Source of the DNA: Kiritimatiellia bacterium
Lineage (GTDB): Bacteria; Verrucomicrobiota; Kiritimatiellia; UBA8416; YA12-FULL-48-11
DNA: 64,000 nt
Assembly (NCBI GenBank): GCA_028716365.1
Contig: JAQUPZ010000001.1
Location: 839,393 to 903,392 of the forward strand
Direction of reading: 5' to 3'
Shown: positions 4,208 through 33,317 of the stretch, piece after piece
Position numbering within the stretch: position 1 is the first letter of the stretch
Layout of the letters: every line of letters begins with the position of its first letter
The notes under the pieces: model-generated
Database searches by the model: none
The model's input: only the letters and a program-made list of their open reading frames with translations
What the model was told of the DNA's origin: nothing
Program-made: the position numbers and the translations under genes

Positions 4208-4263
4208 TTTTTACTCCTCCTTGTTGTCGATATTCGACTGCCCGGACGAATGATAACCAGTTG

Positions 4264-5130
4264 TCAGTTATTGTCAGGGGTTTCGACGATCTGGGCTGAT
4301 TCGCGAATTTTATCAACTGCGCGGCCAATTTCGTCGTTTTTACGCTGGTCTTGAATATTCTTCCTTATATCTTTCTTAACCTTTTCAAATCCTATTGGCT
4401 GGGCGGGACGTTTTTCATGGACCTTTGCAATGTGATAGCCGAACTCGGTTCGGAACACATCACTTACCTGGCCTGGTTCGAGTGAGAAGACGACCTTGTC
4501 AAAGGATTCCACCATGGCGCCACGCGGGAACCAGCCGAGGTCCCCTCCGTTGTCGTTACAACTTGAATACTGCCTGGCAATCCGGGCGAAGTCTGCATCT
4601 TTGGTTACCTGTTCGCGAATGTTCATCATTTCGGCATGGAACATGCCGAAGTCCTCGTCACGCGACGGTTGGCGGAGAATATGCGAGGCGTGGACCATTT
4701 CGGCTGACTGAAAATCACTCTTATGTTCTTCGTAATATGCAAGGCATTCTTCATCAGTTGGCGCGGGGACGTCCTTGCAGATTTGCTTGAAGTATTTATC
4801 CAGCCTGACGCTGTCTGCGATTCCAGCCTTTATTTTTTTAACTTCGTCTTCAGGCATATTCGCCGCGGTTTCCTCATTGCCGTATTGCTTTATGAGGTTG
4901 GAGAATTCACGGTCGATCTCTGTCTGCGCAATGGTTGGGAATACCTTCCTGGCCTCCTGTGCAAGCAGGATCCGTTCGATTGCATTTTCCCGGGCATCGT
5001 TGGCAATTTGTGTTTCGCGATTCTGCATTTCATCTGGCGACATGTGTTCGCGATAGCGCTGTTGCAGCATCGTCAGTTCCTGATCGATCAATGCTTTTTC
5101 CAGTTTTTCCCCGTTAATAGTAATACTCAT
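4264..5130 (-). CDS. PpiC/parvulin-type peptidyl-prolyl cis-trans isomerase
   Basis: The C-terminal parvulin domain is present (ASHIL...GGDLGWFPRGAMVESFDKVVF...FGYHIAKV). I place the start at the internal ATG at 5130 because the upstream part of the ORF looks non-coding (AT-rich, odd composition). Confidence 0.65.
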   Translation of the reverse strand: MSITINGEKLEKALIDQELTMLQQRYREHMSPDEMQNRETQIANDARENAIERILLAQEARKVFPTIAQTEIDREFSNLIKQYGNEETAANMPEDEVKKIKAGIADSVRLDKYFKQICKDVPAPTDEECLAYYEEHKSDFQSAEMVHASHILRQPSRDEDFGMFHAEMMNIREQVTKDADFARIARQYSSCNDNGGDLGWFPRGAMVESFDKVVFSLEPGQVSDVFRTEFGYHIAKVHEKRPAQPIGFEKVKKDIRKNIQDQRKNDEIGRAVDKIRESAQIVETPDNN

Positions 5131-5315
5131 AGATATCTTTCTTTTATTGTTACAGGTGTGAAATTTGCGCGAAAAACGGTTGCAATACAAGACGAAATAA
5201 AAAATGACATAGTTGTAAACCTTGGTCATGTGAAGTATGTGACAAACTACTTGGCAATTGTTAAGTAACAGTCTATTTTTAACATGAATATCGCAGGAAT
5301 ACTTGGAGATATCCT

Positions 5316-6353
5316 ATGACGGAAAATCAGTGGAAGCAGTTGGTCAGGGTTGTTCAGGGAGAAGCTGTAAAACCATTGCCTGTCGGGTTCATAATTGACA
5401 GCCCGTGGCTGCCTGGCTGGTCGGGTATTTCAATTGTTGATTATTTTGCTTCTGAACAGATGTGGTTTGAAGCCAATCTCAAGGCCGTCAGGCGTTTTCC
5501 CGATGTTATTTTCCTGCCCGGGTTCTGGTCGGAATATGGCATGTGTACAGAGCCATCGGCATTTGGTTCGAAATGTGTATTTCACGAAAATGATCTTCCA
5601 TTTGCCGACAAAATAATCGAAACACCGCAACAGATGACATCACTCAGGAAACCTGATGTGAAGACGGACGGTTTACTTCCTTTTGCCCTGAAGCGGCTCC
5701 AGCACGCCCGAAAGGCAATTGAGAAAGAAGGACATGCAATCAAGTTTGCGGTGGCAAGGGGACCGCTGAATATTGCTTCGTTTTTGATGGGCGCGACTGA
5801 ATTCATGATCGCATTGAAAGAATCGCCGCAGGAAAGTCATGCCATGCTTAATACGATCACTGATTTTCTGTGTGACTGGATAAAGCTTCAAAAGGAAACT
5901 ATTCCATCGATTGAGGGTGTGTTCCTGCTGGATGATCTGGCAGGATTTCTGGGTGAGGAAGATTTCGTTGAATTTGCCACACCTTACCTGAAGAAATCAT
6001 TCAGTGCGGTTGATTCGAAAGTAAGGTTCTTTCATAACGATGCAGGCGGCTTGGTATGTGCGCCGCATCTTGCCGGTATTGGCGTTAACCTTTTTAATTT
6101 CAGTTTCCAGCATGGGATGAAAGAGATGCTTGATAAAACCGGCGGAAAGGTTTGCCTGCTGGGCAACATTCCGCCGCGTGACGTGCTGGCCAGCGGAAAG
6201 CCTGATGATGTGCGCAAGGGAGTCAAGGCGATGTTTGAAGGTGTTTCAGACCCGCGCAGAATCATTGCCTCATGCGGTGGCGGCATGTCGCAGAACACGC
6301 CGACGGAGAACATAGAGACATTTGTTGAAGCTGTCAGATTGTTGTCATTCTAA
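5316..6353 (+). CDS. Uroporphyrinogen-decarboxylase (URO-D)-like family protein
   Basis: The size is 345 aa and a GGAG SD lies upstream. Overall resemblance is to the URO-D/MtaA-like TIM-barrel family (weak, by eye). Confidence 0.4.
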   Translation: MTENQWKQLVRVVQGEAVKPLPVGFIIDSPWLPGWSGISIVDYFASEQMWFEANLKAVRRFPDVIFLPGFWSEYGMCTEPSAFGSKCVFHENDLPFADKIIETPQQMTSLRKPDVKTDGLLPFALKRLQHARKAIEKEGHAIKFAVARGPLNIASFLMGATEFMIALKESPQESHAMLNTITDFLCDWIKLQKETIPSIEGVFLLDDLAGFLGEEDFVEFATPYLKKSFSAVDSKVRFFHNDAGGLVCAPHLAGIGVNLFNFSFQHGMKEMLDKTGGKVCLLGNIPPRDVLASGKPDDVRKGVKAMFEGVSDPRRIIASCGGGMSQNTPTENIETFVEAVRLLSF

Positions 6354-6706: not shown

Positions 6707-6966
6707 AGCAGTTAATCCTAATATAATATTTATATCAGACTTGAGTATAAATGACAAAGGCTTAATGTGTTGATATGAAAGGTGGGGTAAGTACAACGGC
6801 ATTATCGCCTATTCTCATTCGAAGATCAGTTACTTTTGCAACGTAACGGTCGATCGTTCATTTCCCATATGTGCCATTTCCGGACAAAAGGTTCAATTAT
6901 TTCTGTTTTATGTTTATCAGTCATAAATTTGTGATAATGTTCATATCCGTTTGGAGAGAGGTGCAT

Positions 6967-9477
6967 ATGAAACTTCGACTTATCCTGCTTGCTATAATAA
7001 TTCAGGTTTTTCCTTTGTATGCAGAACAAGTATTCGATGAGTTTGCAGAGCTGAAGAATGAAATTGTGTCCAGCAAAAACTGGGACAATGGAAGACTGTG
7101 GCGCGAAACCTTGCGGAAAGAAGCATTGATAATGGAAAACGACAGGACTCCCGTGGACATTGTCTGGCGCCGGACACTTGCCCTGTTGGCTGATATCAAA
7201 GCAATGAAGAATGTACCTGACCTTTCAGGTGAAACTGCGGCACTCCAGGCGCTTAAACAGGAGGTGGATGATCTTTACAGACAGAAAGATGTGCCAGAGA
7301 AAACTCAGCTCGCAATTTTCGAGAAAATCACGGCAATCAGGCGAAAGATAGCATTTAAAAACCCCATTCTCGATTTCGACAGGATCATTTTCCTGAAACA
7401 TAACAAGCAGGCAAAAGGTTCTATTCACATGATCGATCAGTACCTTGGTTTTAATGCTGAGAAAAAAGGCGGTGTTTATGTACTGGAGAAAGCTTTCAGT
7501 GATGCTCCGATATTGAAAAGTCTGACGAAAGATTTTCCGGTTGAAAAGGGAAGACTGAAAGGGCGCAGGCTTGAAGACAATGGATCATTTATTTCCCTTG
7601 AACTTGATTATGACGCCAGAACAATACTGTTTGGTTTTACCGAAGCCGAGGAAATTTCCAGGAATCGGGACTACAATACGCAGATGTATACCGAGGAAGA
7701 ATTACTTAAACGCATGCCGGGATACAAGACCTACTACTTCTGTCCTGAAACTACTTATCATGTTTTCAAGGCCAATGTCGATGGTTCGAATCTGCAGCAA
7801 TTGACGGATGGCAAATGGAATGAGTTTGACCCGGTCTTCCTGCCAAACGGCAGAATTGTTTTTGTGTCGGAGCGTGCGGAAGGTGCATGCCGGTGCGGTG
7901 CGAGACCTTTACCGTCTGCCACGCTGTTCTCGATGATGCCTGACGGCAGTGATATCATTCAGCTGAGCTGGCATGATACCAATGAATGGCATCCGAGCGT
8001 GGATAATAACGGCATGATTGTTTATACCCGGTGGGATTACGTGGACCGGGATTCCGATATTGCCCATCACATCTGGCATTGTTTTCCTGACGGCCGCGAT
8101 CCGAGGTCCCTGCATGGTAATTACCCTGAAATCCGTGAATTAAGGCCGTGGATGGAAATGTCCATTCGCGCCATTCCTGATTCGTCAAAATATGTAGCGG
8201 TTACTTCCCAGCATCATGGGCAGGCTTATGGGTCATTAATAATGATTGATTTACGGGAAAAGGATGATCGCAGTACTGCTCAATTGAAGAGAATTACCCC
8301 GGAAGCGCCTTTTGCTGAATCCGAATCTCTGCCCGGTGTTCCTTATAAAAAGGGGAAGAGGACAATAGCCGGCGAACGGTATGGTGCTCCGTGGCCTTTA
8401 AGTGACGATTATTACTTGTGTGTTTATGATCCGAAATGCTCCAAGTACGGGATTTATCTGGTAGACAGTTTTGGGAATCGGGAAATGATTTATTATGACC
8501 CGGCGACTTCATGCCTGGACCCGATACCTCTGAAACCACGAAATCGACCTCCAGCAATTCCAGTCAAGACAATACAGGCCAAGGTTGACCAGCCTGCAGG
8601 TAATGTGGATCTGTCGACGGGGAAGATTGCGGTAATGAATATTTATGAGAGCGAATTTGAATGGCCGAAGGATATAAAAATCAGGGAATTACGTATTGTA
8701 AATATTTTTCCGAAAGACAATTCAATCGCAGATGATCCGAATGTCGGAAAGGCCCGGCAATCGCTTTGTCGCGGGGTACTTGGGACCGTACCCGTTGGAG
8801 AGGATGGTAGTGTATATCTCGAGGTGCCTACAGGAGCAGGTATTTATTTCCAGGCGCTGGATGAAAATGGAATGGCAGTACAAACGATGCGTTCAGACAC
8901 GTATGTGCACCCCGGCGAAACCCTGACCTGTATTGGTTGCCACGAGTCTAAATATAATATCATGAGTAATAAGGAGCGGCAGATTCCCATGGCACTGAAA
9001 CGCCAGCCATCGAAACTTAAATCGGAATGTGAAGGTTCTTATCCATTGACATTTTCCAGATTGGTCCAGCCGGTTCTAAATAAACATTGCGTTACCTGCC
9101 ATGACCAGAAGAAAAAGGCGCCGAATCTTCATGGTGATGTTTTCACTTCTCATGGATGGTCACAGGCGTTTATGTCGCTTCAAAAATATGGCTGGGGAAG
9201 AAGCGGCGGGAATGGGATAATTTTCAGCGAAGGACGGCAGTATTCAATCCCAGGGCAGGACTGTGCAAGAGTTTCAAAGCTCTATGACCTGCTGAAGCGC
9301 GGGCATAACGACGTAAAGCTTTCACCAGAAGAACTGCGACGCATTACCCTGTGGATAGACTGCAACAGCAATTTCTACGGTGCATATCATGATATTGAGA
9401 AACAGGCAAAGGCTGAAATAGTAAAACCAAAATTCGGCGTACCTGACTGGACAGAGTTTGAAAAAATAGTGCGCTAA
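6967..9477 (+). CDS. Secreted PD40/TolB-like beta-propeller di-heme (2x CXXCH) protein, HzsA-like family, paralog 1
   Basis: A signal peptide follows the ATG at 6967, which has a good SD. It carries CIGCH and CVTCH motifs. Motifs shared with the three paralogs include TRWDYVDR, YLVDxFGN, DPIPLKPRNRPP, TVPVGEDGS, YFQALD..MRSDT and WIDCN...Y. Confidence 0.75.
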   Translation: MKLRLILLAIIIQVFPLYAEQVFDEFAELKNEIVSSKNWDNGRLWRETLRKEALIMENDRTPVDIVWRRTLALLADIKAMKNVPDLSGETAALQALKQEVDDLYRQKDVPEKTQLAIFEKITAIRRKIAFKNPILDFDRIIFLKHNKQAKGSIHMIDQYLGFNAEKKGGVYVLEKAFSDAPILKSLTKDFPVEKGRLKGRRLEDNGSFISLELDYDARTILFGFTEAEEISRNRDYNTQMYTEEELLKRMPGYKTYYFCPETTYHVFKANVDGSNLQQLTDGKWNEFDPVFLPNGRIVFVSERAEGACRCGARPLPSATLFSMMPDGSDIIQLSWHDTNEWHPSVDNNGMIVYTRWDYVDRDSDIAHHIWHCFPDGRDPRSLHGNYPEIRELRPWMEMSIRAIPDSSKYVAVTSQHHGQAYGSLIMIDLREKDDRSTAQLKRITPEAPFAESESLPGVPYKKGKRTIAGERYGAPWPLSDDYYLCVYDPKCSKYGIYLVDSFGNREMIYYDPATSCLDPIPLKPRNRPPAIPVKTIQAKVDQPAGNVDLSTGKIAVMNIYESEFEWPKDIKIRELRIVNIFPKDNSIADDPNVGKARQSLCRGVLGTVPVGEDGSVYLEVPTGAGIYFQALDENGMAVQTMRSDTYVHPGETLTCIGCHESKYNIMSNKERQIPMALKRQPSKLKSECEGSYPLTFSRLVQPVLNKHCVTCHDQKKKAPNLHGDVFTSHGWSQAFMSLQKYGWGRSGGNGIIFSEGRQYSIPGQDCARVSKLYDLLKRGHNDVKLSPEELRRITLWIDCNSNFYGAYHDIEKQAKAEIVKPKFGVPDWTEFEKIVR

Positions 9478-15084: not shown

Positions 15085-17592
15085 ATGTTGAAGCAAATAG
15101 GGACAATATTATTCGCGATTGTTCTGTGTGCGTTTTCGATTCATGCCGCGGATACAACGAATGCGGCAGCAGTACCGAACTTTGACAGCCTGCGGATGGT
15201 GATTCAGGACCTGGGTTCGACATTTCCCCTTGAGTATGAAGGCGTGACATTGAGTAATGAATTCAAGGGGCTTGAAAGTGAATACCGGCATATTCAGAAT
15301 CAGGCAGATCGAGATGCTTTCGCGCAGAAGTACGAGGCATTTTCACGCAGGGTTTTACTGTCGAACCCGTTGTTAATAAAAAATCCGGTGCTGTTTGTGG
15401 TACGACGCCAGTACAAACCGGACCATCACAATACCGAAACCATGTTCCAGACCGGCGAAATAAATACGAAAAGTTTCCAGGGTGGCGGGGCATTGAAGGT
15501 CATCGATTTTAAAAAAGGCGGTGATGTCAGAACTTTGCTTGCTGTTGAAAAAGGTGTGATTCGCGATCCGGATGTGCATTTTGACGGCAGGAAAATTCTC
15601 TTCTCAATGCGAAAAGATATCGACGATAATTATCACATCTACGAAATAAACTCCGATGGTACTGGTTTGAGACAGATTACATCGGCGAAAGGCGTGTTCG
15701 ATATTGATCCGATTTATCTGCCTGACGAAAGCATTGTTTTCTCTTCATCCCGTGAACCGAAGTTTTGCATGTGTAACAGACATATCATGGGAAATCTATT
15801 CAGGATGGATTCCGATGGTGCCAACATTCACCAGATCAGCAAGAACACGCTGCATGACGGGCATGGCTGGCTGATGTCTGACGGAAGAATCATGTATGAC
15901 AGGTGGGAATACGTCGACAGGAACTTTGGCGATGCGCAGGGATTATGGACCGTGAATCCAGACGGGACACAGCACCTGATTTACTGGAAAAACAATACAG
16001 GCAGTCCGGGTGTGGCGCTTGATGGTCACGATATTCCGGAAACCCAGCAGCTGTTATGTGTTTTTTCGTCATGTCACGATCGTCCATGGGGAGCGCTGGC
16101 TCTGGTTGACAGAAGGCTGGGGTTGGATGGACGTCCGCCGGTTGTGCGTACATGGCCAGCTGATGCCGTTAATCTGATAAATGTCAATGGTAGCTTTGAT
16201 GCTTTTCGAAAAGTTAAATTAAAATTTGAAGATCCGTATCCTCTGAGCAGTAAGTATTTCATATGTTCCCGGATGACTGGAAAAGGCGAAGAGATGGGGC
16301 TTTACCTGGTTGATATTTTCGGCAACGAAATCCTTCTGCATGTTGAGGAACCGGCCTGTTTTGATCCGGTCCCGCTGGCGCCGCGTCACCGCCCGCCGGT
16401 CATTCCTTCGAAAAGGGATTACGAAAACAAGGAAGGCGTCCTTTTTGTACAAAACGTTTATCTCGGCACACACATGGAAGGAGTAAAACCCGATACAGTC
16501 AAGTTTCTCCGTGTAATCGAGTCGGGTGAAAAGAGATCATGGAGCCATCCATGCTGGTTTGGTCAGGGCGCGGAAGCGCCTGGTATGAACTGGCATGATT
16601 TTGGTAACAAGAAAATCCTTGGAACAGTTCCGGTGGAGGATGACGGGTCAGCATGTTTTTCCGTACCCAGCGACAGGTTTATTTTTTTCCAACTGTTGGA
16701 TAAAAATTACATGATGATCCAGTCGATGCGCAGCGGAATGGTTGTACAGTCCGGCGAGAGAACGGGTTGTATCGGATGTCACGATGAACGCCGCAGTGCG
16801 CCGCCACTGGCAAAGGCCGACACATTAAAGGCATTGAAAAGGGAACCAAGCAGATTGGAAGGATGGAACGGACCGCCTCGGTTCTTTAATTACATAACTG
16901 AGGTCCAGCCTGTTTTTGACAAGCATTGCGTCAGTTGCCATGATTTTGATAAGCCGGATGGAAAAGTCCTCAACCTGTCCCGTGACCGTGGAATGATTTT
17001 TAATGTTTCGTACCATGAATTATGGACCAAAAAACAGATCAAGGTTGTGGGTGCTGGTCCGGCGGAAATCCAGCAGGCATATTCCTGGGGATCACATGCA
17101 AGTCGATTAGTGGGAGTACTTGCCAAGGAACATGGAGAAGTGAAGTTAACCAGAGAAGAAAAAGACCGGATTATTACATGGGTTGATCTCAATGCACCGT
17201 ATTATCCGGAATTTGATACAAATTTTCCCAACAATCTTTATGGTCGTGCCCCGCTTAGTGGCCAGCAGGTAAAGCGTTTGTTTGAACTTACAGGTGTAAA
17301 TTGTGATGAAAGAAAACATGCCATGGATGTCTGTTTCGACAGACCAGAGGTCAGCCCCTGTCTTGACAAGTTTTCAGACAGAAATGATCCTGTTTATAAA
17401 GAGGCCCTGGCAATCATTGCGGAAGGAAAGAAAATCCTGACAGAAAATCCTTCCGCAGAAATGGCGAATTTCAAGCCCTGTGAGGATCATCAGAAACGAC
17501 AGGATAAATATACAGTACGTCTGGCAATCGAACAGCGTAACCGCGAAGCAATCCGCACCGGGAAAAAGTTGTACGACAAAGATATCAATTAG
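15085..17592 (+). CDS. Secreted PD40 beta-propeller di-heme (2x CXXCH) protein, HzsA-like family, paralog 2
   Basis: A signal peptide is present. It carries CIGCH and CVSCH. The family motifs are conserved (RWEYVDRNFGD, YLVDIFGNE, DPVPLAPRHRPP, TVPVEDDGSA, FFQLLDKNYMMIQSMRS, WVDLNAPYY). Confidence 0.8.
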   Translation: MLKQIGTILFAIVLCAFSIHAADTTNAAAVPNFDSLRMVIQDLGSTFPLEYEGVTLSNEFKGLESEYRHIQNQADRDAFAQKYEAFSRRVLLSNPLLIKNPVLFVVRRQYKPDHHNTETMFQTGEINTKSFQGGGALKVIDFKKGGDVRTLLAVEKGVIRDPDVHFDGRKILFSMRKDIDDNYHIYEINSDGTGLRQITSAKGVFDIDPIYLPDESIVFSSSREPKFCMCNRHIMGNLFRMDSDGANIHQISKNTLHDGHGWLMSDGRIMYDRWEYVDRNFGDAQGLWTVNPDGTQHLIYWKNNTGSPGVALDGHDIPETQQLLCVFSSCHDRPWGALALVDRRLGLDGRPPVVRTWPADAVNLINVNGSFDAFRKVKLKFEDPYPLSSKYFICSRMTGKGEEMGLYLVDIFGNEILLHVEEPACFDPVPLAPRHRPPVIPSKRDYENKEGVLFVQNVYLGTHMEGVKPDTVKFLRVIESGEKRSWSHPCWFGQGAEAPGMNWHDFGNKKILGTVPVEDDGSACFSVPSDRFIFFQLLDKNYMMIQSMRSGMVVQSGERTGCIGCHDERRSAPPLAKADTLKALKREPSRLEGWNGPPRFFNYITEVQPVFDKHCVSCHDFDKPDGKVLNLSRDRGMIFNVSYHELWTKKQIKVVGAGPAEIQQAYSWGSHASRLVGVLAKEHGEVKLTREEKDRIITWVDLNAPYYPEFDTNFPNNLYGRAPLSGQQVKRLFELTGVNCDERKHAMDVCFDRPEVSPCLDKFSDRNDPVYKEALAIIAEGKKILTENPSAEMANFKPCEDHQKRQDKYTVRLAIEQRNREAIRTGKKLYDKDIN

Positions 17593-17789
17593 CCCTCTTC
17601 TTGGTTCTGGCTAATTATAACGACAAATTGTACTAAACAATTGAGTGTTTTATTTATGCATATTATCCTGGTAATGTCGCTTAATTTCGTTTCACCGCTG
17701 CTTGATACTGGTAGAAACTTAACGTGAGGATGCCTTTGTCATCCTCAAAAAACATTTGTCCGGATAATACTGTTATGCGAGGAGATAAA

Positions 17790-19313
17790 ATGGCAGATAG
17801 CAATCTCTTGTTTCGAAGACAGTTCTTGCTGACGCCTGATGCCTGTTCATCTCTCAGTCATTGGCAGCATATACACGTTGGGATTTTTCATATATATGCA
17901 CACCCTGACGTACAACTTTCTACCGTAACATCAGCAGATACAAATGTAACTCTCTCGCTCGTGGGATACATCATCGATCCCAATTTCCCGGAGCGATCAA
18001 ATACAGATGTATTAAACACGATTGCCAGCCTCGGCGATTCAGTTGAAAATATTAGCGACTATCTGTGTGCCCTTTCCGGTCGTTTTGTTTTAATACTAAC
18101 AACCGCAAAGGAAACATTACTGTTTCATGATCCATGCGGATTGCGAACTGTATACTATACAAAATATGAAGGCAAAGTATTCGTTGGTTCGCAGCCGTAT
18201 ATCTTCAAACAGGTTATGCCTCTAAAGGATGGAGAACTCTTCTCGTCCTTTTTCAGATCATCATACGCAAAGCGTAATATTGAATATTGGATACCCAGCG
18301 GGTGCTCACTTTTTGAGGAAGTACACCATTTAATCCCTAATCACTATCTACGCCTTTCAACGCTTGAACAGATAAGGTATTGGCCTAAAAGGATATTGCT
18401 CCAGAAGCGTGTGGATGAAGTCATAACTGATGCCTCTGATCTTTTAAAGAAACTGATGATTGCTGCAAACAACAGATTTAAGCTCGCTCTACCGGTTACA
18501 GCAGGATGGGACTCAAGAATACTTCTTAGTGCTTCAAAGAGTATTTCCAGGGAAATCTACTTTTATACATTGCAATATCGCAACCTTAATTCCAGGTCAA
18601 GCGACATCAAAATTCCGGCAGAGCTATTACGATCTCTTGGCTTACGTCACAATCTTATAGATTGTCGTAAAACTATTTCTGATGAATTTATCGAAATATA
18701 CCGGCGGAATTCGCCGCTTGCGCACATAGAGGACTGGGGAAAAATAGCATACGGAATGATTGATAAGTATCCACAAGACAGGGTAGCCATTAAAGGGAAC
18801 TGTTCCGAAATTGCGAGGTCTTTTTATTATAAATACGGTTTTCATCGACCGATTATTTCTCCTGATCAGATCGTTGCACTTGTGAATGGCTGGCAGACGA
18901 TACCGTTTGTACGCGATCAGATTTTTACCTGGTATAATCAAGCCATTGAAGTGGCTGCTGAAACAAACATGGATATTCTTGATCTATTCTACTGGGAACA
19001 CCGAATGGGCAGTTGGCAGGCACAGAGTCAGCTTGAATGGGATATAGTCCAAGAGGCATATACTCCATTCAATCACAGAGGACTTCTCGAACTCATGCTT
19101 GGTGTTTCTACGAATTTACGAAGTGCTCCCAATTACAGCTTGTACAAAATGATGTTCAAACTTCTTTGGCCGGAAGTCATGAAACAGCCCATTAACCCTA
19201 CAACAACAATGAACAGGCTGAGGAAAATCTTAAAGCACGGTATTTATGAAATAGCGAGGAGAGTCTACGCATATGCTGTCCGGAAAAACGGAAACAATGG
19301 GAAATGGCAATAA
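17790..19313 (+). CDS. Asparagine-synthetase (AsnB)/lasso-cyclase-like amidotransferase homolog, divergent, no N-terminal Cys nucleophile
   Basis: A GAGGAG SD lies 5 nt upstream. An AsnB glutaminase-domain-like stretch is present (GRFVLIL...LFHDPCGLRTVYY). A degenerate PP-loop (LPVTAGWDSR) replaces the usual SGGLDS. GC is low (about 43%) relative to the neighbouring genes. Confidence 0.5.
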   Translation: MADSNLLFRRQFLLTPDACSSLSHWQHIHVGIFHIYAHPDVQLSTVTSADTNVTLSLVGYIIDPNFPERSNTDVLNTIASLGDSVENISDYLCALSGRFVLILTTAKETLLFHDPCGLRTVYYTKYEGKVFVGSQPYIFKQVMPLKDGELFSSFFRSSYAKRNIEYWIPSGCSLFEEVHHLIPNHYLRLSTLEQIRYWPKRILLQKRVDEVITDASDLLKKLMIAANNRFKLALPVTAGWDSRILLSASKSISREIYFYTLQYRNLNSRSSDIKIPAELLRSLGLRHNLIDCRKTISDEFIEIYRRNSPLAHIEDWGKIAYGMIDKYPQDRVAIKGNCSEIARSFYYKYGFHRPIISPDQIVALVNGWQTIPFVRDQIFTWYNQAIEVAAETNMDILDLFYWEHRMGSWQAQSQLEWDIVQEAYTPFNHRGLLELMLGVSTNLRSAPNYSLYKMMFKLLWPEVMKQPINPTTTMNRLRKILKHGIYEIARRVYAYAVRKNGNNGKWQ

Positions 19314-19440
19314 GAAGGGTTTGTTCAAAAAAAGCATGGAATATAACTTTTCCGGAGATTCTTTCTGCTTTTCTATAATGCTTTGAAGAAGCTCCAATAA
19401 AATCTTGCTGCCAATCGTAACAGTGTTAGCATTTTGATAA

Positions 19441-19508
19441 TTAACCGGGACAAGAGCGCTGGAACCGGTGTTTCAGAATTGCTCCCCAAAAAAGCAATTT
19501 CTTGTAAC
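19441..19508 (+). promoter_or_regulatory. Conserved 68-bp leader element, copy 1 (contains palindrome AATTGCT-N9-AGCAATT at 19476-19498)
   Basis: It is about 94% identical to 22170..22237. It ends 20 nt before the ATG of the 19529 gene. An SD (AGGAG) follows it. Confidence 0.6.
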
Positions 19509-19528
19509 TTAACTTTAGGAGTCGTGAC

Positions 19529-21223: not shown

Positions 21224-21731
21224 TATTGATCCCTTCTAACCCTGACTAAGAATGTCACGCTGGGAAATAGAATTTTGTCCTGATTTTGCCTAATCACTAT
21301 TTACGACTGATTAGCCCGGATATTTCTCAGAGCGGCCAAAGAAGCCGTAACCAAAGAGAGAAGTGGTGTGCATTTTGCAGGGAAGCCGATAAGCGTCTTT
21401 TGCACGCCGACTTTGTTGCTGCAAGCGGTGCAGATGCATATCTAGCCCCGCTTGCAGACGCCGTGTCGGCATCACAAAATCCACTTACCGTTTCCCTGTC
21501 CCCATGGATCCCCAAAATGCACACCACGGCCTGTCATCCGTATCCGTCGACCGACGGATACGGAACTTAAGAAATTTTCTCAGGAAAAGAAAAAAATACC
21601 GGATAATAGTATGAGTAAGAGATTGGCTCATGCATAAGCGCTTTTGCGACAATCACTTTACCGCACCGTAAAAGTTTCGACTGCGTGCTATTGCACTTTG
21701 CTCAAGATGACCCTTCGTCGCGTCGAAAGGT

Positions 21732-21827
21732 AAATCCTGCCTTCGTCCCGAGTTCCTCAGACCGAGAGGATCAAGTCCGTCGAAGAACGGACACGCCGAA
21801 GCCCTTCGGGCGGATATTGCAGGATTT
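21732..21827. ncRNA. Candidate structured RNA element: 9-bp closing stem (AAATCCTGC/GCAGGATTT) enclosing about 78 nt with three internal hairpins
   Basis: Inverted repeats are visible in the sequence. One hairpin has a UUCG-type loop (GCCC-TTCG-GGC). It lies in a 1-kb non-coding gap. Confidence 0.3.
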
Positions 21828-22169
21828 TGATACTATTACCCGTCAACATTTTCCTGTTTTGAGAAGATTTTCTGCCGCGATAAAGATTGTCTCTTGATTC
21901 CGGATCAATCCGCCGATCGGCGGATTGTGTAAACCGTGTCACGAATTTCTATTCTTCGGTGAAATATTTGATGTCAGATGCCGTTGCAGCACGGCAAAAG
22001 GATCGGCGCTGTATATGCATACGCGCCGCATCCTTTCAACACAGCTGCAACGAGCAGATCACATCACAAGATTTCACCGGAAATTCGTAACACTCTTTAA
22101 CTCTAAACAGCGGCGAAATCTGAAATAACTGCTTGTAGCAAGGCATAACCGTGATAGGATTTCCTTAAC

Positions 22170-22237
22170 TAACCGGGACAAGAGCGCTGGAATCGGTGTT
22201 TCAGAATTGCTCCCCAATAAAGCAATTTCTTATAAAC
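22170..22237 (+). promoter_or_regulatory. Conserved 68-bp leader element, copy 2
   Basis: It is near-identical to 19441..19508 and contains the same AATTGCT-N9-AGCAATT palindrome. It ends 18 nt before the ATG at 22256. Confidence 0.6.
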
Positions 22238-25191: not shown

Positions 25192-28149
25192 ATGAAAACA
25201 AACAGGATTAAGAAAGAAAAATGCTTTTTTCCCGTCAGGGCACTTATTACAGCCATGATAATCATTTTGCCACTGTTGTTCCTTCCGAAGGATGTTTCCG
25301 CCATGGCGGCGAAGATGAAGTCAGCTGGGAACGTAATTATCGAATGCGACACCTTTTCCTATGAATTTACGGCCAAGGGCAGGAACGTCCGTTTTGTCGA
25401 CAAGGCTTCCGGAAAAAATTATCTCAAAAGCGGGGATTCGTACTGCGCGTATGCGAAAAAGGATGGAAAAACTTTTTATCCGTCCACCGTTTCCCTCCGT
25501 GACGGCGTCCTCGCGATTCAATTTGCGGGAACAGGCCTTTCGTCTGAGGTTAAAGTGCTGAAACAGAAGGAACGGGTTCTTTACGAAGTTCAAAAAGTCA
25601 CTGGAGACCCGGAGTCACTGACATTTCTGAATATTCCTCTTAACCTTGAAGGAATGCCCTGGGAACCATTTGCGGCCTGTTCGCTCAAGCTGAACCTGTT
25701 TACGCATGTGCACCAGCTTCCCGCTCTGCAAACCGAACTTTGGGCTACTTGCTACAAAAGATTCGGACTAAACGGGGCAAAGGCGGCATTTATCGGGGTT
25801 CCTCAAAAGCAAATTCTTCCGGTCATACGCGACGTCCTGACGAAAGCCGCCCCGGCTATCCCGTTCGGCGACCAGGGTGGCGCCTGGGCTCTTTCCTCAA
25901 AGGAAGGGTATGGCTCCTACCTCATGAATTTCGGAAGCCTGACTGAGGAAACCGTCGACCAATGGATCGAAAACTGCAAACGTGTCGGATTCAATCAGGT
26001 CGACAACCACGGCGGCAGTTCGTCGTTCTTTCTGTTCGGTAGTTTTGAAATGGATAAGAAAAAATTTCCGGAAGGATGGAAGTCGTTCAAGAAGATTGTG
26101 GATAAACTCCACGCGGCAGGCATCTCTTCAATCCTGCACACCTATGCGTGCTATATCGGGCCGTCGTCGAAATACGTAACACCCATTCCACATGCCGGGC
26201 TGGATACTGTCACGACGTTTACGCTTGCCGGACCGCTTTCCGAAACGGCAAACGAGGTTGTGGTCCGCGAATCGACGGCTAACCGCTCTCTGGACGTCGG
26301 ATACAGGGTTACAAACAACCGGACATTGAGGATAGGTGATGAAATCATCAAATACGAAGGGGTCACGTCCGAAGCACCGTTTAAATTCACCGGCTGCAAG
26401 CGCGGATTCCATGGGACGAAAGTCTCGGAACATAAAGCCGGTGTGAAAGCCTCTGTTCTCAAAACGTTCTGGGGCGGCCTGTACGTCCCGAACCCGGATT
26501 CCCCTCTCTTCGACGAAATTGCGAAAAACACTGCCGATGTCATTAACGAATGCGGATTTGACGGAATATATCTCGATGCCATTGAAGGTATACGTGACAT
26601 GTGGGGAGAAGAAAATTACTGGTATTACGGCGACCGTTTCGTTTTTGAAATCGCAAAGCATCTCAAGAAACCGATAGGAATGGAATATGCAGGAATGATG
26701 CACGGCTGGTGGTTTTACCGCTCACGATACCAGGCTTGGGATTCCGCGGCCCGCGGTTACAAGCGGTTTATTGATATTCATATCGCCGCCATGAAAGCCA
26801 ATTCAGAATATCAGCACGGATGCTGGAGCGGAAACCTGCCGCTGATCGAAAAATATGCTCCCCTGGAAAATTATCCGCTTTTTCTTCCCCTCCAGTTCGG
26901 ATGGTGGTCCTTCCATACCTGGCAAGGTCCAAAAACGGAACCGACCTATTATGACGATATGGAGTACGTCTGCTGCAAAATGATCGGTAATAACGCCGGA
27001 TTGTCCCTGAACCGCGATATCGGTGAGTCAACGCTCCGGGCCCATCCCGTCTACCGGGACTTCCTTGCAATGATCAAGCAGTATGAGGAACTGCGGCACC
27101 AGAATTACTTCGACGAATCCGTACGCGCCAAATTGCGGCAGGTCGGGAAAGAGTTTACCCTCTTCCGTGAAGCGGGTGGCAAATGGAATTTCAAGCCGAT
27201 TTTCTACAGGAAACACAAGGTCTGCGGCCTGGCCCATCCGTCTGCGCAATGGAACGTCGAAAATGAATTTGCGGACCAACCGGTCAAATTGCGCCTTGAA
27301 TCCCTGGTTTCCGTTGCCCGGGATTCGGATCAGGTTCTCCTTCTCGATTCAAAAGACACAGAAGAGTTTCGTCTGGTCAAAGCGGCGGATGGGGTTACCT
27401 GTTCCGTAAAACCGGATAAACTCACAGTACCTGCCACGGGTGAAACTGCTGTCGAATTGACCGGACGAAGTACCGGAGCATCCCCCCGAGAGGGCTCCTG
27501 GGTCTCCATGGGTAAAACGTTTGAACCGTCCCTCAACTTGGGAAACAAACAGGCAATCGGCGTCTGGATTTGTGGTGACGGTAGCGGTGCGCTCCTTAAT
27601 TTCCGTGTCTCGACACGCCTCCCGCACTGGGGAATGAGCAACCATTACGTCCTGCTGGATTTTACCGGTTGGAAATACTTCGAACTCGTGGAATCGGAAT
27701 CGACGCGGAGCAGCGATTATATCTGGCCGAAATCCGGTGGCTATTTCGTATACGATCATTACCGCGGAAAGGCAACCTACGGAAGTATCAGTTCCTTTGA
27801 ACTCTGGTTCAACAACCTTCCGGCGAATAAAACCGTCAACTGCAAACTCGGTCCGGTCCGGGCGCTGAACATCGCCATGAAGAAAATCGAAAATCCGACC
27901 GTTACAATCAATGGTTCGAAACTCACTTTCCCGGTTACGATGGAATCCGGCATGTACCTGGAACTGAAATCGAAGGACAACTGCAAGCTTTACGACAAGG
28001 ACGGCAAAGTTGTTTGCGAAGTCGTACCGAAGGGAGAAATTCCCACCCTGAAGAGCGGCGGGAACAATGTTTTGTTCCATTGCGAAAACCCCGGTAAAGA
28101 GGACCCCAGGGTACAGGTCACCCTTATCGGTGAGGGTAAACCCCTGTAG
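25192..28149 (+). CDS. Large secreted hypothetical protein (985 aa), possible glycan-active TIM-barrel enzyme
   Basis: A signal peptide is present. I see no diagnostic family motif. A GFDGIYLDAIEG stretch suggests a hydrolase-like barrel. Confidence 0.4.
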   Translation: MKTNRIKKEKCFFPVRALITAMIIILPLLFLPKDVSAMAAKMKSAGNVIIECDTFSYEFTAKGRNVRFVDKASGKNYLKSGDSYCAYAKKDGKTFYPSTVSLRDGVLAIQFAGTGLSSEVKVLKQKERVLYEVQKVTGDPESLTFLNIPLNLEGMPWEPFAACSLKLNLFTHVHQLPALQTELWATCYKRFGLNGAKAAFIGVPQKQILPVIRDVLTKAAPAIPFGDQGGAWALSSKEGYGSYLMNFGSLTEETVDQWIENCKRVGFNQVDNHGGSSSFFLFGSFEMDKKKFPEGWKSFKKIVDKLHAAGISSILHTYACYIGPSSKYVTPIPHAGLDTVTTFTLAGPLSETANEVVVRESTANRSLDVGYRVTNNRTLRIGDEIIKYEGVTSEAPFKFTGCKRGFHGTKVSEHKAGVKASVLKTFWGGLYVPNPDSPLFDEIAKNTADVINECGFDGIYLDAIEGIRDMWGEENYWYYGDRFVFEIAKHLKKPIGMEYAGMMHGWWFYRSRYQAWDSAARGYKRFIDIHIAAMKANSEYQHGCWSGNLPLIEKYAPLENYPLFLPLQFGWWSFHTWQGPKTEPTYYDDMEYVCCKMIGNNAGLSLNRDIGESTLRAHPVYRDFLAMIKQYEELRHQNYFDESVRAKLRQVGKEFTLFREAGGKWNFKPIFYRKHKVCGLAHPSAQWNVENEFADQPVKLRLESLVSVARDSDQVLLLDSKDTEEFRLVKAADGVTCSVKPDKLTVPATGETAVELTGRSTGASPREGSWVSMGKTFEPSLNLGNKQAIGVWICGDGSGALLNFRVSTRLPHWGMSNHYVLLDFTGWKYFELVESESTRSSDYIWPKSGGYFVYDHYRGKATYGSISSFELWFNNLPANKTVNCKLGPVRALNIAMKKIENPTVTINGSKLTFPVTMESGMYLELKSKDNCKLYDKDGKVVCEVVPKGEIPTLKSGGNNVLFHCENPGKEDPRVQVTLIGEGKPL

Positions 28150-31475: not shown

Positions 31476-31544
31476 TATTAAATTCTGCCTGTTACGGTGT
31501 TTAACGATTGTCCTAATTGTAAAGAACCTCACTCTTCCTGGGAG

Positions 31545-33317
31545 ATGATAGTGATCAGAAAATTCATCTGGGATGTGGTATTAGTGTTTGTAATTTCCAT
31601 TCCTTATACTTTGGTCGCCGCTGACAATGTAACGGTGAAATGGGCAAAAGGTAAACAACCTGCGACAGAAGCTTTTCCGGAAATGCGCAAATTGTGGGAC
31701 CGGGAGCCGCCGGCGCCTTCAAAACCGGCAGATGAAAGAACAGAAAAACTGTTCCGGGTAGCTGAAAAAAACGGACGTAGCGCTGCAGAAGGACTTTACC
31801 GGTGTCGAAAATATGTAGATGGGTGGATAATATATGCCGATCCGGAAACTGGTCTCATTCCTCGAGGTCTTGGAAAAGGTAAATGGCTGCATGGTGTCAA
31901 CACATCTGATGTATGGAACGGGCGGGATGCGGGTGCAGACAATTATGCCTTTATGGTTCTTACCTGTGCCATTACTGACCGCACGATGTTTGAGGGACGG
32001 ATGCTTGATATCCTCAAGGCGGAAATCAAGTATTGCAGTCGTGTTGACCGGCTGGGTGACAATTATTGCTTCTCAACCCGGAAGTTTGTTACGGACCAGC
32101 CGATTCTTGATGAAATCATATTCGATAATGCCGAATATGTTAAGGACGGATTGATTCCTCTGACTGAGTGGCTGGGTAAAAGTCCCTGGTCTGACCGGGC
32201 GGTGGCCCTTATCGAGGACATCTGGAAAAATGCATCTGTTGACACGCCTTTCGGAAAGATTCCCACACTGAACTTTGAGGTCAACGGTGACCTTCTTCAG
32301 GCGTGTTCGCGATTCTACTGGTTCACTGGTGAAAGAAAATTCCTGGACTGGGCCATTCGCCTGGGTGATTACTATTTGCTTGGCGATCATCATCCGACCC
32401 GTAACATGAAGGAACTCCGTTTGCGTGACCACGGTTGTGAAGTGATCAACGGCCTGACCGAACTCTATGCGGCATTGAAGCACGCACAGCCTGAGAAAGC
32501 GGAGACATACCGGAAGCCAATTCACGACATGTTTGACAGGATTCTTGCCGTTGGTCGTAATGAACACGGTATGCTTTATAACTCTTTCAATCCCCAGACT
32601 GGTGAACACGGCAAGGGAATTTGTGATACCTGGGGCTATAACTACGATGGGTTCTATACTGTGTATCTCCTGGACAAGACCGAAACATATCGCGATGCAG
32701 TACGGCAGGCGATGGGTAATCTTCAGGCTCATTACACAAACTATTTATGGGAAGGTCAGAGTTCGGACGGTTATGCTGATTCAGTTGAAAGCGGGATCAA
32801 CCTTTATAACCGCGAACCAATTGCTTCTACGGCTGGCTGGATAGATAGCGAAATCAGAGTAATGTGGGCCAAGCAGCATGACGATGGGGTCATTGAAGGC
32901 TGGCATGGTGATGGTAATTTTGCCCGTACGACGGTCATGTACGTATTATGGAAAACGCAGGGAATTCGTGTTGAACCATGGCGTCCGGATGTAAGGATTG
33001 GAACGGTACGTGAAGGTGATACTCTGTTCATAAGTCTTGCTGTTGACCAGCCGTGGTCTGGTAAAGTTGTTTTTGACCAGCCGCGCCATAAGGTTAATCT
33101 GCACATGCCTATTGATTATCCACGAATCAACCAGTTTCCCGAATGGTTTACTGTTGAGGATAGTACCCGTTACGAGGTGAAAAACCTTGCCGATAGCAAA
33201 CCTGAAGAACATGATGGGAAGGAAATGTCCTCAGGTATTCCGGTAACAGTTCCGGCTAACACAGAGTTGAGGTTAACAGTAAAGAAGAAATTGAAAGACG
33301 GTTTGGGAAATACCTGA
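31545..33317 (+). CDS. Secreted hypothetical protein, possibly (alpha/alpha)6-barrel glycoside hydrolase/lyase-like
   Basis: A signal peptide follows the ATG at 31545. The fold guess is weak. Confidence 0.35.
   Translation: MIVIRKFIWDVVLVFVISIPYTLVAADNVTVKWAKGKQPATEAFPEMRKLWDREPPAPSKPADERTEKLFRVAEKNGRSAAEGLYRCRKYVDGWIIYADPETGLIPRGLGKGKWLHGVNTSDVWNGRDAGADNYAFMVLTCAITDRTMFEGRMLDILKAEIKYCSRVDRLGDNYCFSTRKFVTDQPILDEIIFDNAEYVKDGLIPLTEWLGKSPWSDRAVALIEDIWKNASVDTPFGKIPTLNFEVNGDLLQACSRFYWFTGERKFLDWAIRLGDYYLLGDHHPTRNMKELRLRDHGCEVINGLTELYAALKHAQPEKAETYRKPIHDMFDRILAVGRNEHGMLYNSFNPQTGEHGKGICDTWGYNYDGFYTVYLLDKTETYRDAVRQAMGNLQAHYTNYLWEGQSSDGYADSVESGINLYNREPIASTAGWIDSEIRVMWAKQHDDGVIEGWHGDGNFARTTVMYVLWKTQGIRVEPWRPDVRIGTVREGDTLFISLAVDQPWSGKVVFDQPRHKVNLHMPIDYPRINQFPEWFTVEDSTRYEVKNLADSKPEEHDGKEMSSGIPVTVPANTELRLTVKKKLKDGLGNT

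What the first reader, a model, noticed from the sequence alone, without database searches (positions are those of the whole stretch)
17790..19313. Divergent AsnB / lasso-cyclase-like protein without a Cys nucleophile and with an altered PP-loop
The N-terminal half carries the asparagine-synthetase glutaminase-domain signature region (GRFVLIL...HDPCGLRTVYY versus the canonical GMFAFAL...RDxxGIKPLYY). There is no Cys at position 2. The synthetase-domain PP-loop reads TAGWDSR instead of SGGLDS. This pattern is typical of AsnB homologs recruited for amide or isopeptide formation on peptides or glycans (lasso cyclases, amidotransferases), not for Asn synthesis. No RiPP protease or precursor is obvious nearby. 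A 24-aa ORF (17656..17730) directly upstream has no SD and a 5-aa putative core, so a lasso-peptide role is unsupported.
Basis: partly seen in the sequence, partly recalled or inferred. Interest (0 to 1): 0.5.

Follow-up and report, generated by a model that had tools for sequence, protein, structure and literature searches.

The report
Cys-less AsnB-like ligase, orphan gene
This gene encodes a very divergent relative of asparagine synthetase that cannot use glutamine but keeps its ATP-activating site; it belongs to a large unnamed enzyme family normally found in surface-polysaccharide gene clusters, and here it sits alone as a recent horizontal insertion among sugar-degrading genes.

Summary

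It falls below every curated AsnB model. It belongs to a large unnamed family: 1,855 50%-identity representatives at E<=1e-30, in many bacterial phyla and a haloarchaeon. G239 and D241 of the PP-loop are invariant, while the glutaminase residues are lost.

In 40 of 53 related loci the gene lies among polysaccharide-biosynthesis genes (GT2/GT4, Wzx, Wzy, Wza/Wzc, Wzt). One such locus is an E. coli plasmid capsule locus.

No lasso or RiPP partners are present. The window copy is atypical. It is a single low-GC gene (0.415 against 0.47-0.56) in a Kiritimatiellae glycan-degradation cluster, and it is 77-83% identical in DNA, over the CDS only, to copies in other phyla. That indicates recent single-gene transfer.

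Best reading: a glutamine-independent, adenylate-forming amide ligase or cyclase that decorates a surface glycan. The substrate is unknown. Moderately interesting; a new variant of a known kind.

The parts
17790..19313 (+). CDS of the 507-aa Cys-less AsnB-superfamily protein (stop codon included)
17780..17784 (+). Shine-Dalgarno AGGAG, 5 nt before the ATG
   Evidence: Read directly from the sequence. DNA similarity to other loci starts at 17771, so it includes this site.
17790..18389 (+). N-terminal Ntn/class-II glutaminase-like domain (about residues 1-200), catalytically degenerate
17811..17828 (+). Conserved N-terminal motif FRRQFL (residues 8-13), at and just before the first beta-strand, where Cys1 of true Ntn amidotransferases would lie
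   Evidence: R9, R10, Q11 and F12 are conserved in 197-225 of 246 members. In the model the first strand is residues 12-15 and the 10-residue block 11-20 has mean pLDDT 98. The motif resembles a Tat signal but has no hydrophobic h-region.
18078..18158 (+).
   Evidence: Aligned by hhalign to GMFAFAL...GRDHLGIIPLY of E. coli AsnB. G97 and D114 are invariant in 246 sequences.
18390..19199 (+). PP-loop ATP-pyrophosphatase (synthetase) domain, about residues 201-470
18498..18518 (+). PP-loop T237-A-G239-W-D241-S-R243
   Evidence: Aligned to S234-G-G-L-D238-S239 of AsnB. G239 and D241 are invariant, T/S237 is 246/246 and R243 is 245/246. Variants are listed. A family member on an E. coli plasmid has canonical SGGLDSR.
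18792..18812 (+). KGNCSEI (residues 335-341), probable counterpart of the AsnB SGEGSDE motif (G336=G347, N337=E348, E340=D351 Mg ligand)
   Evidence: Global hhalign, with low per-column confidence. G336 is 234/246 and E340 is 227/246. This mapping is inferred, not shown.
19200..19310 (+). Poorly conserved, strongly basic amphipathic C-terminal helix (residues 471-507, net charge +8)
   Evidence: AF2 helix 473-501 with pLDDT 77-84. Across 239 members the tail is about 33 aa, with median net charge +7 and median hydrophobic moment 0.5. A peripheral membrane-binding role is inferred.
17593..19528 (.). Low-GC segment (gene 0.415, intergenic flanks 0.365 and 0.381) between HZS_alpha-domain and GH123 genes; probable horizontally acquired insert
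   Evidence: Composition. DNA similarity to loci from other phyla is confined to 17771-19288. dS is 0.44-0.9 and dN/dS 0.13-0.29 against those copies.
17716..17730 (+). Left copy of a 15-nt imperfect direct repeat (AACTTAACGTGAGGA); the right copy is at 19506-19520
   Evidence: the repeat finder family D1, 13/15 identical, spacing 1790 nt. It may be an insertion scar or chance. The empty-site test could not be done.
19506..19520 (+). Right copy of the 15-nt direct repeat (AACTTAACTTTAGGA), overlapping the GH123 ribosome-binding site
   Evidence: sequence.
17725..17747 (.). 8-bp hairpin TGAGGATGcctttgtCATCCTCA in the upstream spacer, followed by an A-run on the + strand
   Evidence: Terminator-like only on the - strand. 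Function unknown.

Best explanation
The gene encodes a cytoplasmic, glutamine-independent member of the asparagine-synthetase-B superfamily. The proposed mechanism has three parts. (1) The C-terminal PP-loop domain binds Mg-ATP through T237-A-G-W-D241-S-R243 and probably E340, and adenylates a carboxylate on its substrate, releasing PPi. (2) A pre-formed amine then attacks the acyl-AMP to give an amide and AMP. The amine could be free ammonia, an amino acid or amino alcohol, or an amino group within the same molecule. (3) The N-terminal Ntn-like domain cannot hydrolyse glutamine, because it has no N-terminal Cys and the Asn74, Glu76 and Asp98 equivalents are replaced. It is nevertheless well conserved, so it probably serves as a substrate-binding or structural module, as in beta-lactam synthetase and carbapenam synthetase. 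By genomic association, the family's normal substrate is a sugar unit of a surface polysaccharide, most likely a nucleotide- or undecaprenyl-linked precursor. The basic amphipathic C-terminal helix may hold the enzyme at the inner face of the membrane. The window copy is a recently transferred single gene in a Kiritimatiellae glycan-degradation cluster. It is intact and under purifying selection. It presumably decorates a glycan that is made elsewhere in the genome. What is shown: the fold, loss of the glutaminase residues, PP-loop conservation, the genomic association of the family, and the horizontal transfer. What is inferred: carboxylate adenylation, amide formation, a glycan substrate, and membrane association.
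Against: No biochemical data exist for any member. UDP-sugar 6-dehydrogenase genes, the obvious source of a sugar carboxylate, lie within 10 kb in only 5 of 53 loci. No single gene is an obligate neighbour. Thirteen of 53 loci, and the window itself, show no recognised polysaccharide-biosynthesis neighbour. The counterparts of AsnB Glu348 and Lys449 could not be identified with confidence. Three family representatives are fused to a 2H phosphoesterase domain, which a glycan-amidation model does not explain.
Confidence: 0.55

Rival explanations
1. It is a PP-loop enzyme that does something other than amide formation on a glycan carboxylate. Examples are activation of a carbonyl oxygen (amidine or thio-modification), ester formation, or action on a nucleotide or RNA substrate.
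Confidence: 0.18
2. It is an intramolecular lactam-forming synthetase for a small molecule, like beta-lactam synthetase or carbapenam synthetase, and not a glycan-tailoring enzyme.
Against: Identity to these enzymes is only 12-13%. No clavam or carbapenem pathway genes, and no other secondary-metabolite genes, were found in the window or in related loci. The family is associated with polysaccharide loci.
Confidence: 0.08
3. The window copy is a functionally idle passenger: an orphan horizontally acquired gene with no substrate in this host, on its way to decay.
For: It is a low-GC single-gene insert inside a catabolic cluster with none of the family's usual neighbours. dN/dS against its nearest relative is the highest of the set, at 0.29.
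Against: The reading frame is intact and it has a good Shine-Dalgarno sequence. All family-invariant residues are present in the window protein. A dN/dS of 0.29 still indicates purifying selection. The same gene-context arrangement is seen in three independent assemblies.
Confidence: 0.1
4. It is a lasso-peptide or other RiPP macrolactam cyclase.
For: It is a Cys-less AsnB-like protein, the class to which lasso cyclases belong. There is a faint hit to the NCBIfam macrolactam-cyclase model (E=0.26, 9.8 bits). A 23-aa ORF lies upstream.
Against: The model score is 9.8 bits against a cut-off of 300. No transglutaminase-like protease, PqqD/RRE or ABC exporter was found anywhere in the Pfam-scanned neighbourhood. 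The mini-ORF has no Shine-Dalgarno sequence and is not conserved in related loci. None of the 53 related loci looks like a RiPP cluster.
Confidence: 0.03
5. It is a genuine, perhaps ammonia-dependent, asparagine synthetase of primary metabolism.
For: Its best curated-model hit is TIGR01536, asparagine synthase.
Against: The score is 33.7 bits against the equivalog cut-off of 267. There is no PF00733 hit for this protein. Identity to AsnB and ASNS is 11-14%. The gene is horizontally transferred and lies in polysaccharide loci that in five cases also encode an AsnB-like protein, two of them with the canonical MCG N-terminus and two without a Cys at residue 2.
Confidence: 0.03

Closest known systems
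Beta-lactam synthetase (PDB 1jgt/1m1z) and carbapenam synthetase CarA (PDB 1q15)
   Different: Identity is only 12-13%. No clavam or carbapenem pathway genes are nearby. The genomic context of the family is polysaccharide biosynthesis. The beta-LS catalytic residues (Tyr348/Glu382/Lys443, from the literature) could not be mapped.
Asparagine synthetase B (E. coli AsnB, PDB 1ct9; human ASNS)
   Different: There is no Cys1. Asn71 sits at the Asp98 position. There is no NGE(I)YN motif. It scores 33.7 bits against the cut-off of 267 on TIGR01536. The C-terminal half does not align with confidence.
TsnB9 hydroxyamidotransferase (PDB 7ylz)
   Different: Identity is 12%. From the literature, TsnB9 is glutamine-dependent and acts in trichostatin biosynthesis. 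No such context is present here.
Lasso-peptide cyclases (McjC-type C proteins)
   Same: They are also Cys-less AsnB-like ATP-dependent amide (isopeptide) formers (established knowledge).
   Different: There is no precursor peptide, no B protease and no RRE. The NCBIfam macrolactam-cyclase model scores 9.8 bits against a cut-off of 300.
Canonical AsnB-type amidotransferases of O-antigen and capsule loci (WbpS/WbtH type, recalled from memory; Cys-first examples seen here: L005, L022 and L041 'AsnB_canon' proteins)
   Same: They lie in polysaccharide loci and are thought to amidate sugar carboxylates.
   Different: Three of the five 'AsnB_canon' proteins start with MCG; the L005 one matches the GATase and Asn_synthase Pfam models. 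The present family does neither. An 'AsnB_canon' protein of this cluster co-occurs with the family in five loci, so the two are not redundant.
Other enzymes that add amino acids to polysaccharide uronic acids (V. cholerae VpsH; E. coli K40/K54 Ser/Thr transferases)
   Same: They catalyse the reaction type proposed here: ATP-dependent amide formation on a lipid-linked sugar acid (PMC13463779).
   Different: VpsH is described as acyl-CoA-ligase/CapK-like, which is a different fold.

Membership tests
AsnB superfamily (Ntn-glutaminase-like domain + PP-loop ATP pyrophosphatase domain) | Two-domain fold in the AsnB arrangement | tested here: met
AsnB superfamily (Ntn-glutaminase-like domain + PP-loop ATP pyrophosphatase domain) | PP-loop SGGxDS at the start of the synthetase domain | tested here: met
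   TAGWDS aligns column for column with SGGLDS. Ser-to-Thr and Gly-to-Ala are conservative changes. G239 and D241 are invariant in 246 members. A family member has SGGLDS itself.
AsnB superfamily (Ntn-glutaminase-like domain + PP-loop ATP pyrophosphatase domain) | Passes the curated sequence models (Pfam PF00733 Asn_synthase, PF13537 GATase_7) | tested here: not met
   There is no PF00733 hit. GATase_7 scores 20.7 bits against a cut-off of 25. Five of the 72 A1 members hit PF00733 weakly (best E=4.5e-4). So superfamily membership rests on fold and profile-profile evidence.
AsnB superfamily (Ntn-glutaminase-like domain + PP-loop ATP pyrophosphatase domain) | Second acidic Mg ligand (AsnB Asp351 in SGEGSDE) | tested here: inconclusive
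   E340 in KGNCSEI aligns with D351 only in a low-confidence global hhalign. E340 is conserved in 227 of 246 members.
Glutamine-hydrolysing asparagine synthetase (EC 6.3.5.4) | N-terminal Cys1 nucleophile | tested here: not met
   The sequence starts MADSNL. Only 2 of 246 members have Cys at residue 2.
Glutamine-hydrolysing asparagine synthetase (EC 6.3.5.4) | Glutamine-binding and oxyanion residues Arg49, Asn74, Glu76, Asp98 | tested here: not met
   Asn71 aligns with Asp98. There is no NGE motif. Only the Gly (G59) is kept under my structural register, and the alignment of the first 65 residues is of low confidence.
Glutamine-hydrolysing asparagine synthetase (EC 6.3.5.4) | TIGR01536 equivalog cut-off | tested here: not met
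   33.7 bits against 267.1.
Lasso-peptide cyclase | Adjacent precursor peptide, leader protease (transglutaminase-like) and RRE/PqqD | tested here: not met
   All ORFs >=150 aa in the 64-kb window were Pfam-scanned, and none belongs to these families. The upstream 23-aa ORF is not conserved. Related loci contain none either.
Lasso-peptide cyclase | Match to a curated macrolactam-cyclase model | tested here: not met
   NF033561 scores 9.8 bits against a cut-off of 300, E=0.26.
Beta-lactam / carbapenam synthetase | Cys-less AsnB fold | tested here: met
   These are the top structural hits.
Beta-lactam / carbapenam synthetase | Catalytic Tyr-Glu dyad and Lys of beta-LS in equivalent positions | not testable with these tools
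   Residue-level structural superposition is not returned by the tools. The sequence alignment of this region is unreliable.
Beta-lactam / carbapenam synthetase | Clavam or carbapenem pathway gene context | tested here: not met
   No such genes were found in the window or in 53 related loci.
Unnamed family defined here (about 500-aa Cys-less AsnB-like proteins of polysaccharide loci) | Full-length match to the family profile with the invariant residues G59, G97, D114, R196, G239, D241 and E403 | tested here: met
   The window protein scores 766 bits against the family HMM and carries all invariant residues.
Unnamed family defined here (about 500-aa Cys-less AsnB-like proteins of polysaccharide loci) | Location in a polysaccharide-biosynthesis locus | tested here: not met
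   This holds for 40 of 53 relatives. The window copy instead lies between HZS_alpha-domain and GH123 genes in a degradative cluster.

The most novel reading that the evidence does not exclude
The family may be a widespread, so far unrecognised class of glutamine-independent AsnB-type ligases. These would attach amino acids, amines or ammonia through amide bonds to acidic sugars of O-antigens, capsules, exopolysaccharides and archaeal glycans. For most known structures carrying this decoration the responsible enzyme has not been identified. Because the gene works without a dedicated partner, it could spread as a single-gene cassette that re-decorates the surface glycan of whichever host receives it, as seems to have happened in this Kiritimatiellae genome.
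Probability: 0.3. Interest if true: 0.6.

Novelty: new variant of a known kind. Interest (0 to 1): 0.4.

Why it matters
Amide-linked amino acids and amines on uronic and other acidic sugars are common in bacterial O-antigens and capsules and in archaeal N-glycans. They change charge, antigenicity and phage or immune recognition, yet few of the enzymes that install them are known. A family with about 1,900 representatives at 50% identity, no Pfam or NCBIfam model, a confidently predicted AsnB-type fold, an intact adenylation loop and a consistent home in polysaccharide loci is a concrete candidate for this chemistry. Tractable members exist, including one in an E. coli plasmid capsule locus and several in cultured Bacteroidota and Halomonas. 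For annotation, the result shows that these 'hypothetical proteins' should be called AsnB-superfamily, glutamine-independent PP-loop ligases. They should not be called asparagine synthetases or lasso cyclases.

Tried and rejected
(1) Lasso/RiPP reading. No partner genes were found, the mini-ORF is not conserved, and the cyclase model scores 9.8 bits against a cut-off of 300.

(2) Tat signal. The conserved FRRQFL resembles the twin-arginine motif. It is followed by polar residues, and it forms the first beta-strand of a confidently modelled domain. Rejected.

(3) Fe-S or persulfide sulfur-transfer chemistry through Cys116, Cys292 and Cys338. These are present in only 172, 201 and 147 of 246 members. 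Rejected as a family feature.

(4) Uronic-acid amidation as a specific claim. UDP-sugar 6-dehydrogenases lie within 10 kb in only 5 of 53 loci, so the carboxylate donor is left open.

(5) An obligate partner gene. Analysis of the immediate neighbours found none.

(6) Anti-phage defence gene. There is no PADLOC hit.

(7) 2H-phosphoesterase partners encoded separately near family members. None were found. The context of one fusion protein was uninformative.

(8) Empty-site test for the insertion. The closest GH123 homologues on long contigs (76% identity) are in non-syntenic Planctomycetota loci. The 15-nt flanking repeat therefore remains unverified.

(9) Literature. No paper describing this family was found. 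Amor et al. 1999 (K40 serine transferase) and Ding et al. 2013 (M. maripaludis threonine addition) are not held in the library.

(10) The AFDB Foldseek library was unavailable.

(11) Rfam and tRNA scans of the window found nothing.

(12) The E. coli plasmid homologue has no near match in complete RefSeq E. coli genomes.

Full report
**Observation.** The ORF at 17790-19313 (+) translates to a 507-aa protein. An AGGAG Shine-Dalgarno sequence lies five bases before the ATG. The longer GTG-initiated frame from 17724 is not used, because homologues align from residue 1. Residue 2 is Ala. The upstream mini-ORF is 23 aa and ends at 17727, a trivial correction. The protein is identical to a 'hypothetical protein' of a Kiritimatiellae MAG.

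**Is it an AsnB relative?** Curated models barely see it.
- Pfam gives only a sub-threshold GATase_7 hit: 20.7 bits against a cut-off of 25.
- NCBIfam gives TIGR01536 at E=2e-8, but with 33.7 bits against a cut-off of 267.
- A 72-sequence family profile finds no AsnB-type chain among solved structures by sequence. It finds only PurF and NAD synthetase, weakly.

More sensitive methods are unambiguous.
- hhalign of the family against canonical AsnB gives 96.4% probability and E=1e-9 over residues 68-305, with LTAGWDSR aligned to LSGGLDSS.
- The AlphaFold model is very confident: pLDDT 95.5, pTM 0.91.

**Active-site anatomy.** I aligned 246 family members.
- The PP-loop is T/S-(A/S/G)-G-x-D-(S/T)-R. 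G239 and D241 are invariant, and R243 is present in 245 of 246.
- TAGWDSR is simply the commonest variant (80 of 246). A distant member on an E. coli plasmid has the canonical SGGLDSR.
- KGNCSEI (residues 335-341) probably corresponds to SGEGSDE of AsnB, which would place E340 at the Asp351 Mg-ligand position. This comes from a low-confidence global alignment.
- Further invariant or near-invariant residues are D272, W381, E403, R430 and R444. These are candidates for substrate and phosphate binding, but they could not be mapped onto Lys449 or Glu348.
- The glutaminase site is gone. There is no N-terminal Cys/Ser/Thr nucleophile. Ten residues, including a conserved FRRQF motif, precede the first strand. 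Asn71 aligns with Asp98, and the NGE motif is absent.
- The N-domain is nevertheless about as conserved as the C-domain: 12 against 14 columns at >=95% identity. It is therefore not a vestige.
- The last ~35 residues are poorly conserved in sequence. They are consistently basic (median net charge +7) and amphipathic.

**The family and where it lives.**
- An exhaustive HMM search finds 1,855 50%-identity representatives at E<=1e-30 and 7,285 at E<=1e-3.
- The source names seen for close homologues are 'hypothetical protein' or, in UniRef, 'Glutamine amidotransferase type-2 domain…'.
- Members occur in Thermodesulfobacteriota, Chloroflexota, Acidobacteriota, Cyanobacteria, Bacteroidota, Balneolales, Proteobacteria, Nitrospirota, Verrucomicrobiota, Clostridia, Rubrobacter and the haloarchaeon Natrinema.
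- I clustered the ORFs within 10 kb of the gene in 53 loci and annotated the cluster representatives. Polysaccharide-biosynthesis genes were present in 40 loci: GT2 in 19, hexapeptide acyltransferase in 14, Wzt ABC exporter in 11, and Wzx, Wzc, Wza and DegT in 9-10 each. Wzy, WecG, FdtA, polysaccharide deacetylase and the initiating transferase also occur.
- Individually annotated loci show the same picture.
- Two annotated records are especially clear. One is an E. coli IncF plasmid kps-like capsule locus, where a 781-aa 'asparagine synthase-related protein' sits between wecB/wecC and glycosyltransferases. The other is a Natrinema megaplasmid locus with a flippase, glycosyltransferases and dTDP-rhamnose genes. 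Both proteins are bona fide members by HMM, at 251 and 374 bits.
- No single neighbour is obligatory.
- UDP-sugar 6-dehydrogenases are nearby in only 5 loci.

**The window copy is out of context.**
- Its neighbours are glycan-degradation genes: GH95, BNR_4, two HZS_alpha-domain proteins, GH123, DUF6807, DMFA2_C and a SASA esterase. No polysaccharide-synthesis gene was found among the window's ORFs of 150 aa or more.
- The gene and its spacers are markedly AT-rich. The gene has GC 0.415 and GC3 0.40, and the spacers have GC 0.37-0.38. The neighbours have GC 0.47-0.56 and GC3 0.48-0.68.
- Its DNA is 83% identical to an unassigned metagenomic copy. It is 77% identical to copies in a Thermodesulfobacteriota MAG and an Anaerolineae MAG. 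The similarity is confined to 17771-19288.
- Synonymous divergence from these copies is unsaturated (dS 0.44-0.9), and dN/dS is 0.13-0.29.
- The gene is also GC-poor relative to its flanks in L063, in the Anaerolineae locus (L012) and in the Halomonas locus (L036). It matches its flanks in the Thermodesulfobacteriota locus.
- I therefore read it as a recent transfer of one self-sufficient gene, still under purifying selection.
- A 15-nt imperfect direct repeat brackets the insert (17716-17730 and 19506-19520). I could not find an empty site to test it.

**Mechanism.** The best-supported explanation is a glutamine-independent, adenylate-forming ligase or cyclase. ATP is bound by the PP-loop, a carboxylate is adenylated, and a pre-formed amine attacks to give an amide. 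The degenerate Ntn domain would serve substrate binding, as in beta-LS and CarA. By association, the substrate is a unit of a surface glycan. The basic amphipathic tail would suit action on lipid-linked intermediates at the membrane. The fold, loss of the glutaminase residues, PP-loop conservation, the context of the family and the transfer are shown. The chemistry and the substrate are inferred.

**Rivals.**
- Lasso cyclase: no partner genes, and the curated model scores 9.8 bits against a cut-off of 300.
- True asparagine synthetase: it fails the equivalog cut-off, and an AsnB-like protein co-occurs with it in five loci (two of those five begin with MCG at full length or more).
- Small-molecule lactam synthetase: no pathway context was found.
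- Defence gene: no PADLOC hit.
- Two rivals remain open. One is a different PP-loop chemistry or substrate class. This is hinted at by three family representatives fused to a 2H phosphoesterase, plus one fused to a methyltransferase and one to a PAS domain. The other is that this particular copy is idle in its host.

**Comparison and novelty.** In fold and logic the protein resembles the Cys-less AsnB homologues beta-LS, CarA and the lasso cyclases. It differs from the canonical AsnB-type amidotransferases of O-antigen loci because it lacks Cys1 and fails their models. It is not a member of any curated family. The recent V. cholerae work assigns glycine addition to a different fold (VpsH) and cites K40/K54 Ser/Thr transferases whose sequences I could not obtain. 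Whether those belong to this family is the key open test. I rate it a new variant of a known kind, of moderate interest.

Noticed in passing
window 6871-9477 (+), 15085-17592 (+), 52566-55295 (-), 55305-59474 (-): Four large paralogous proteins each carry the 'hydrazine synthase alpha middle domain' (PF18582). One is fused to F5/8 type C and FGE-sulfatase domains. All lie in a Kiritimatiellae glycan-degradation region. Their role in glycan catabolism is not obvious.
   Followed up: no
window 17716-17730 and 19506-19520: A 15-nt imperfect direct repeat (13/15 identical) brackets the low-GC AsnB-like gene. The right copy overlaps the GH123 ribosome-binding site. It may be an insertion scar or chance.
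   Followed up: partly
window 17725-17747: An 8-bp hairpin followed by an A-run on the + strand looks like a terminator only for the - strand, yet no - strand gene is nearby.
   Followed up: no
window 21224-22195: About 1 kb between GH123 and the DUF6807 gene has no long ORF, no Rfam hit and no Pfam hit for its 94- and 70-aa ORFs. It may be a decayed gene or a regulatory region.
   Followed up: partly
P0216, P0253, P0269 (family representatives); L067:10001-12175: Some members of the AsnB-like family carry an N-terminal 2H (LigT/2'-5' RNA ligase-like) phosphoesterase domain with both HxT/S motifs. Others have a C-terminal methyltransferase (P0257) or PAS domain (P0187), or an unassigned 470-aa extension (P0238). 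The glycan-amidation model does not explain these fusions.
   Followed up: partly
L068:9023-11368 (E. coli plasmid pCE1537-B, NZ_MT162140.1): A 781-aa family member with a canonical SGGLDS loop and an unassigned ~300-aa N-terminal extension lies in a plasmid-borne kps-type capsule locus next to wecB/wecC (UDP-ManNAcA synthesis). It has no near match in 5,426 complete E. coli genomes. This makes it a tractable system for testing the family's function.
   Followed up: partly
L028:~3074-6000 and L031:10001-12124: Two Bacteroidota loci (Mariniphaga sp., Proteiniphilum acetatigenes) show tandem or split copies of the family gene. In L031 the match spans 2.1 kb in several ORFs, which may reflect a frameshifted or duplicated gene.
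   Followed up: no
window 40029-40808 and 40708-41364; 41328-42956: A ThuA-like ORF overlaps by about 100 nt an ECF sigma factor gene, which is followed by a FecR/Laminin_G_3 anti-sigma-like gene. This is probably a trans-envelope signalling pair that controls the glycan-utilisation genes. The ECF gene's start is probably downstream of the listed ATG.
   Followed up: no
window 25192-28149, 31497-33317, 43049-45418, 45433-46005: Several large ORFs in the degradative cluster (985, 606, 789 and 190 aa) have no Pfam match at E<=1e-4.
   Followed up: no
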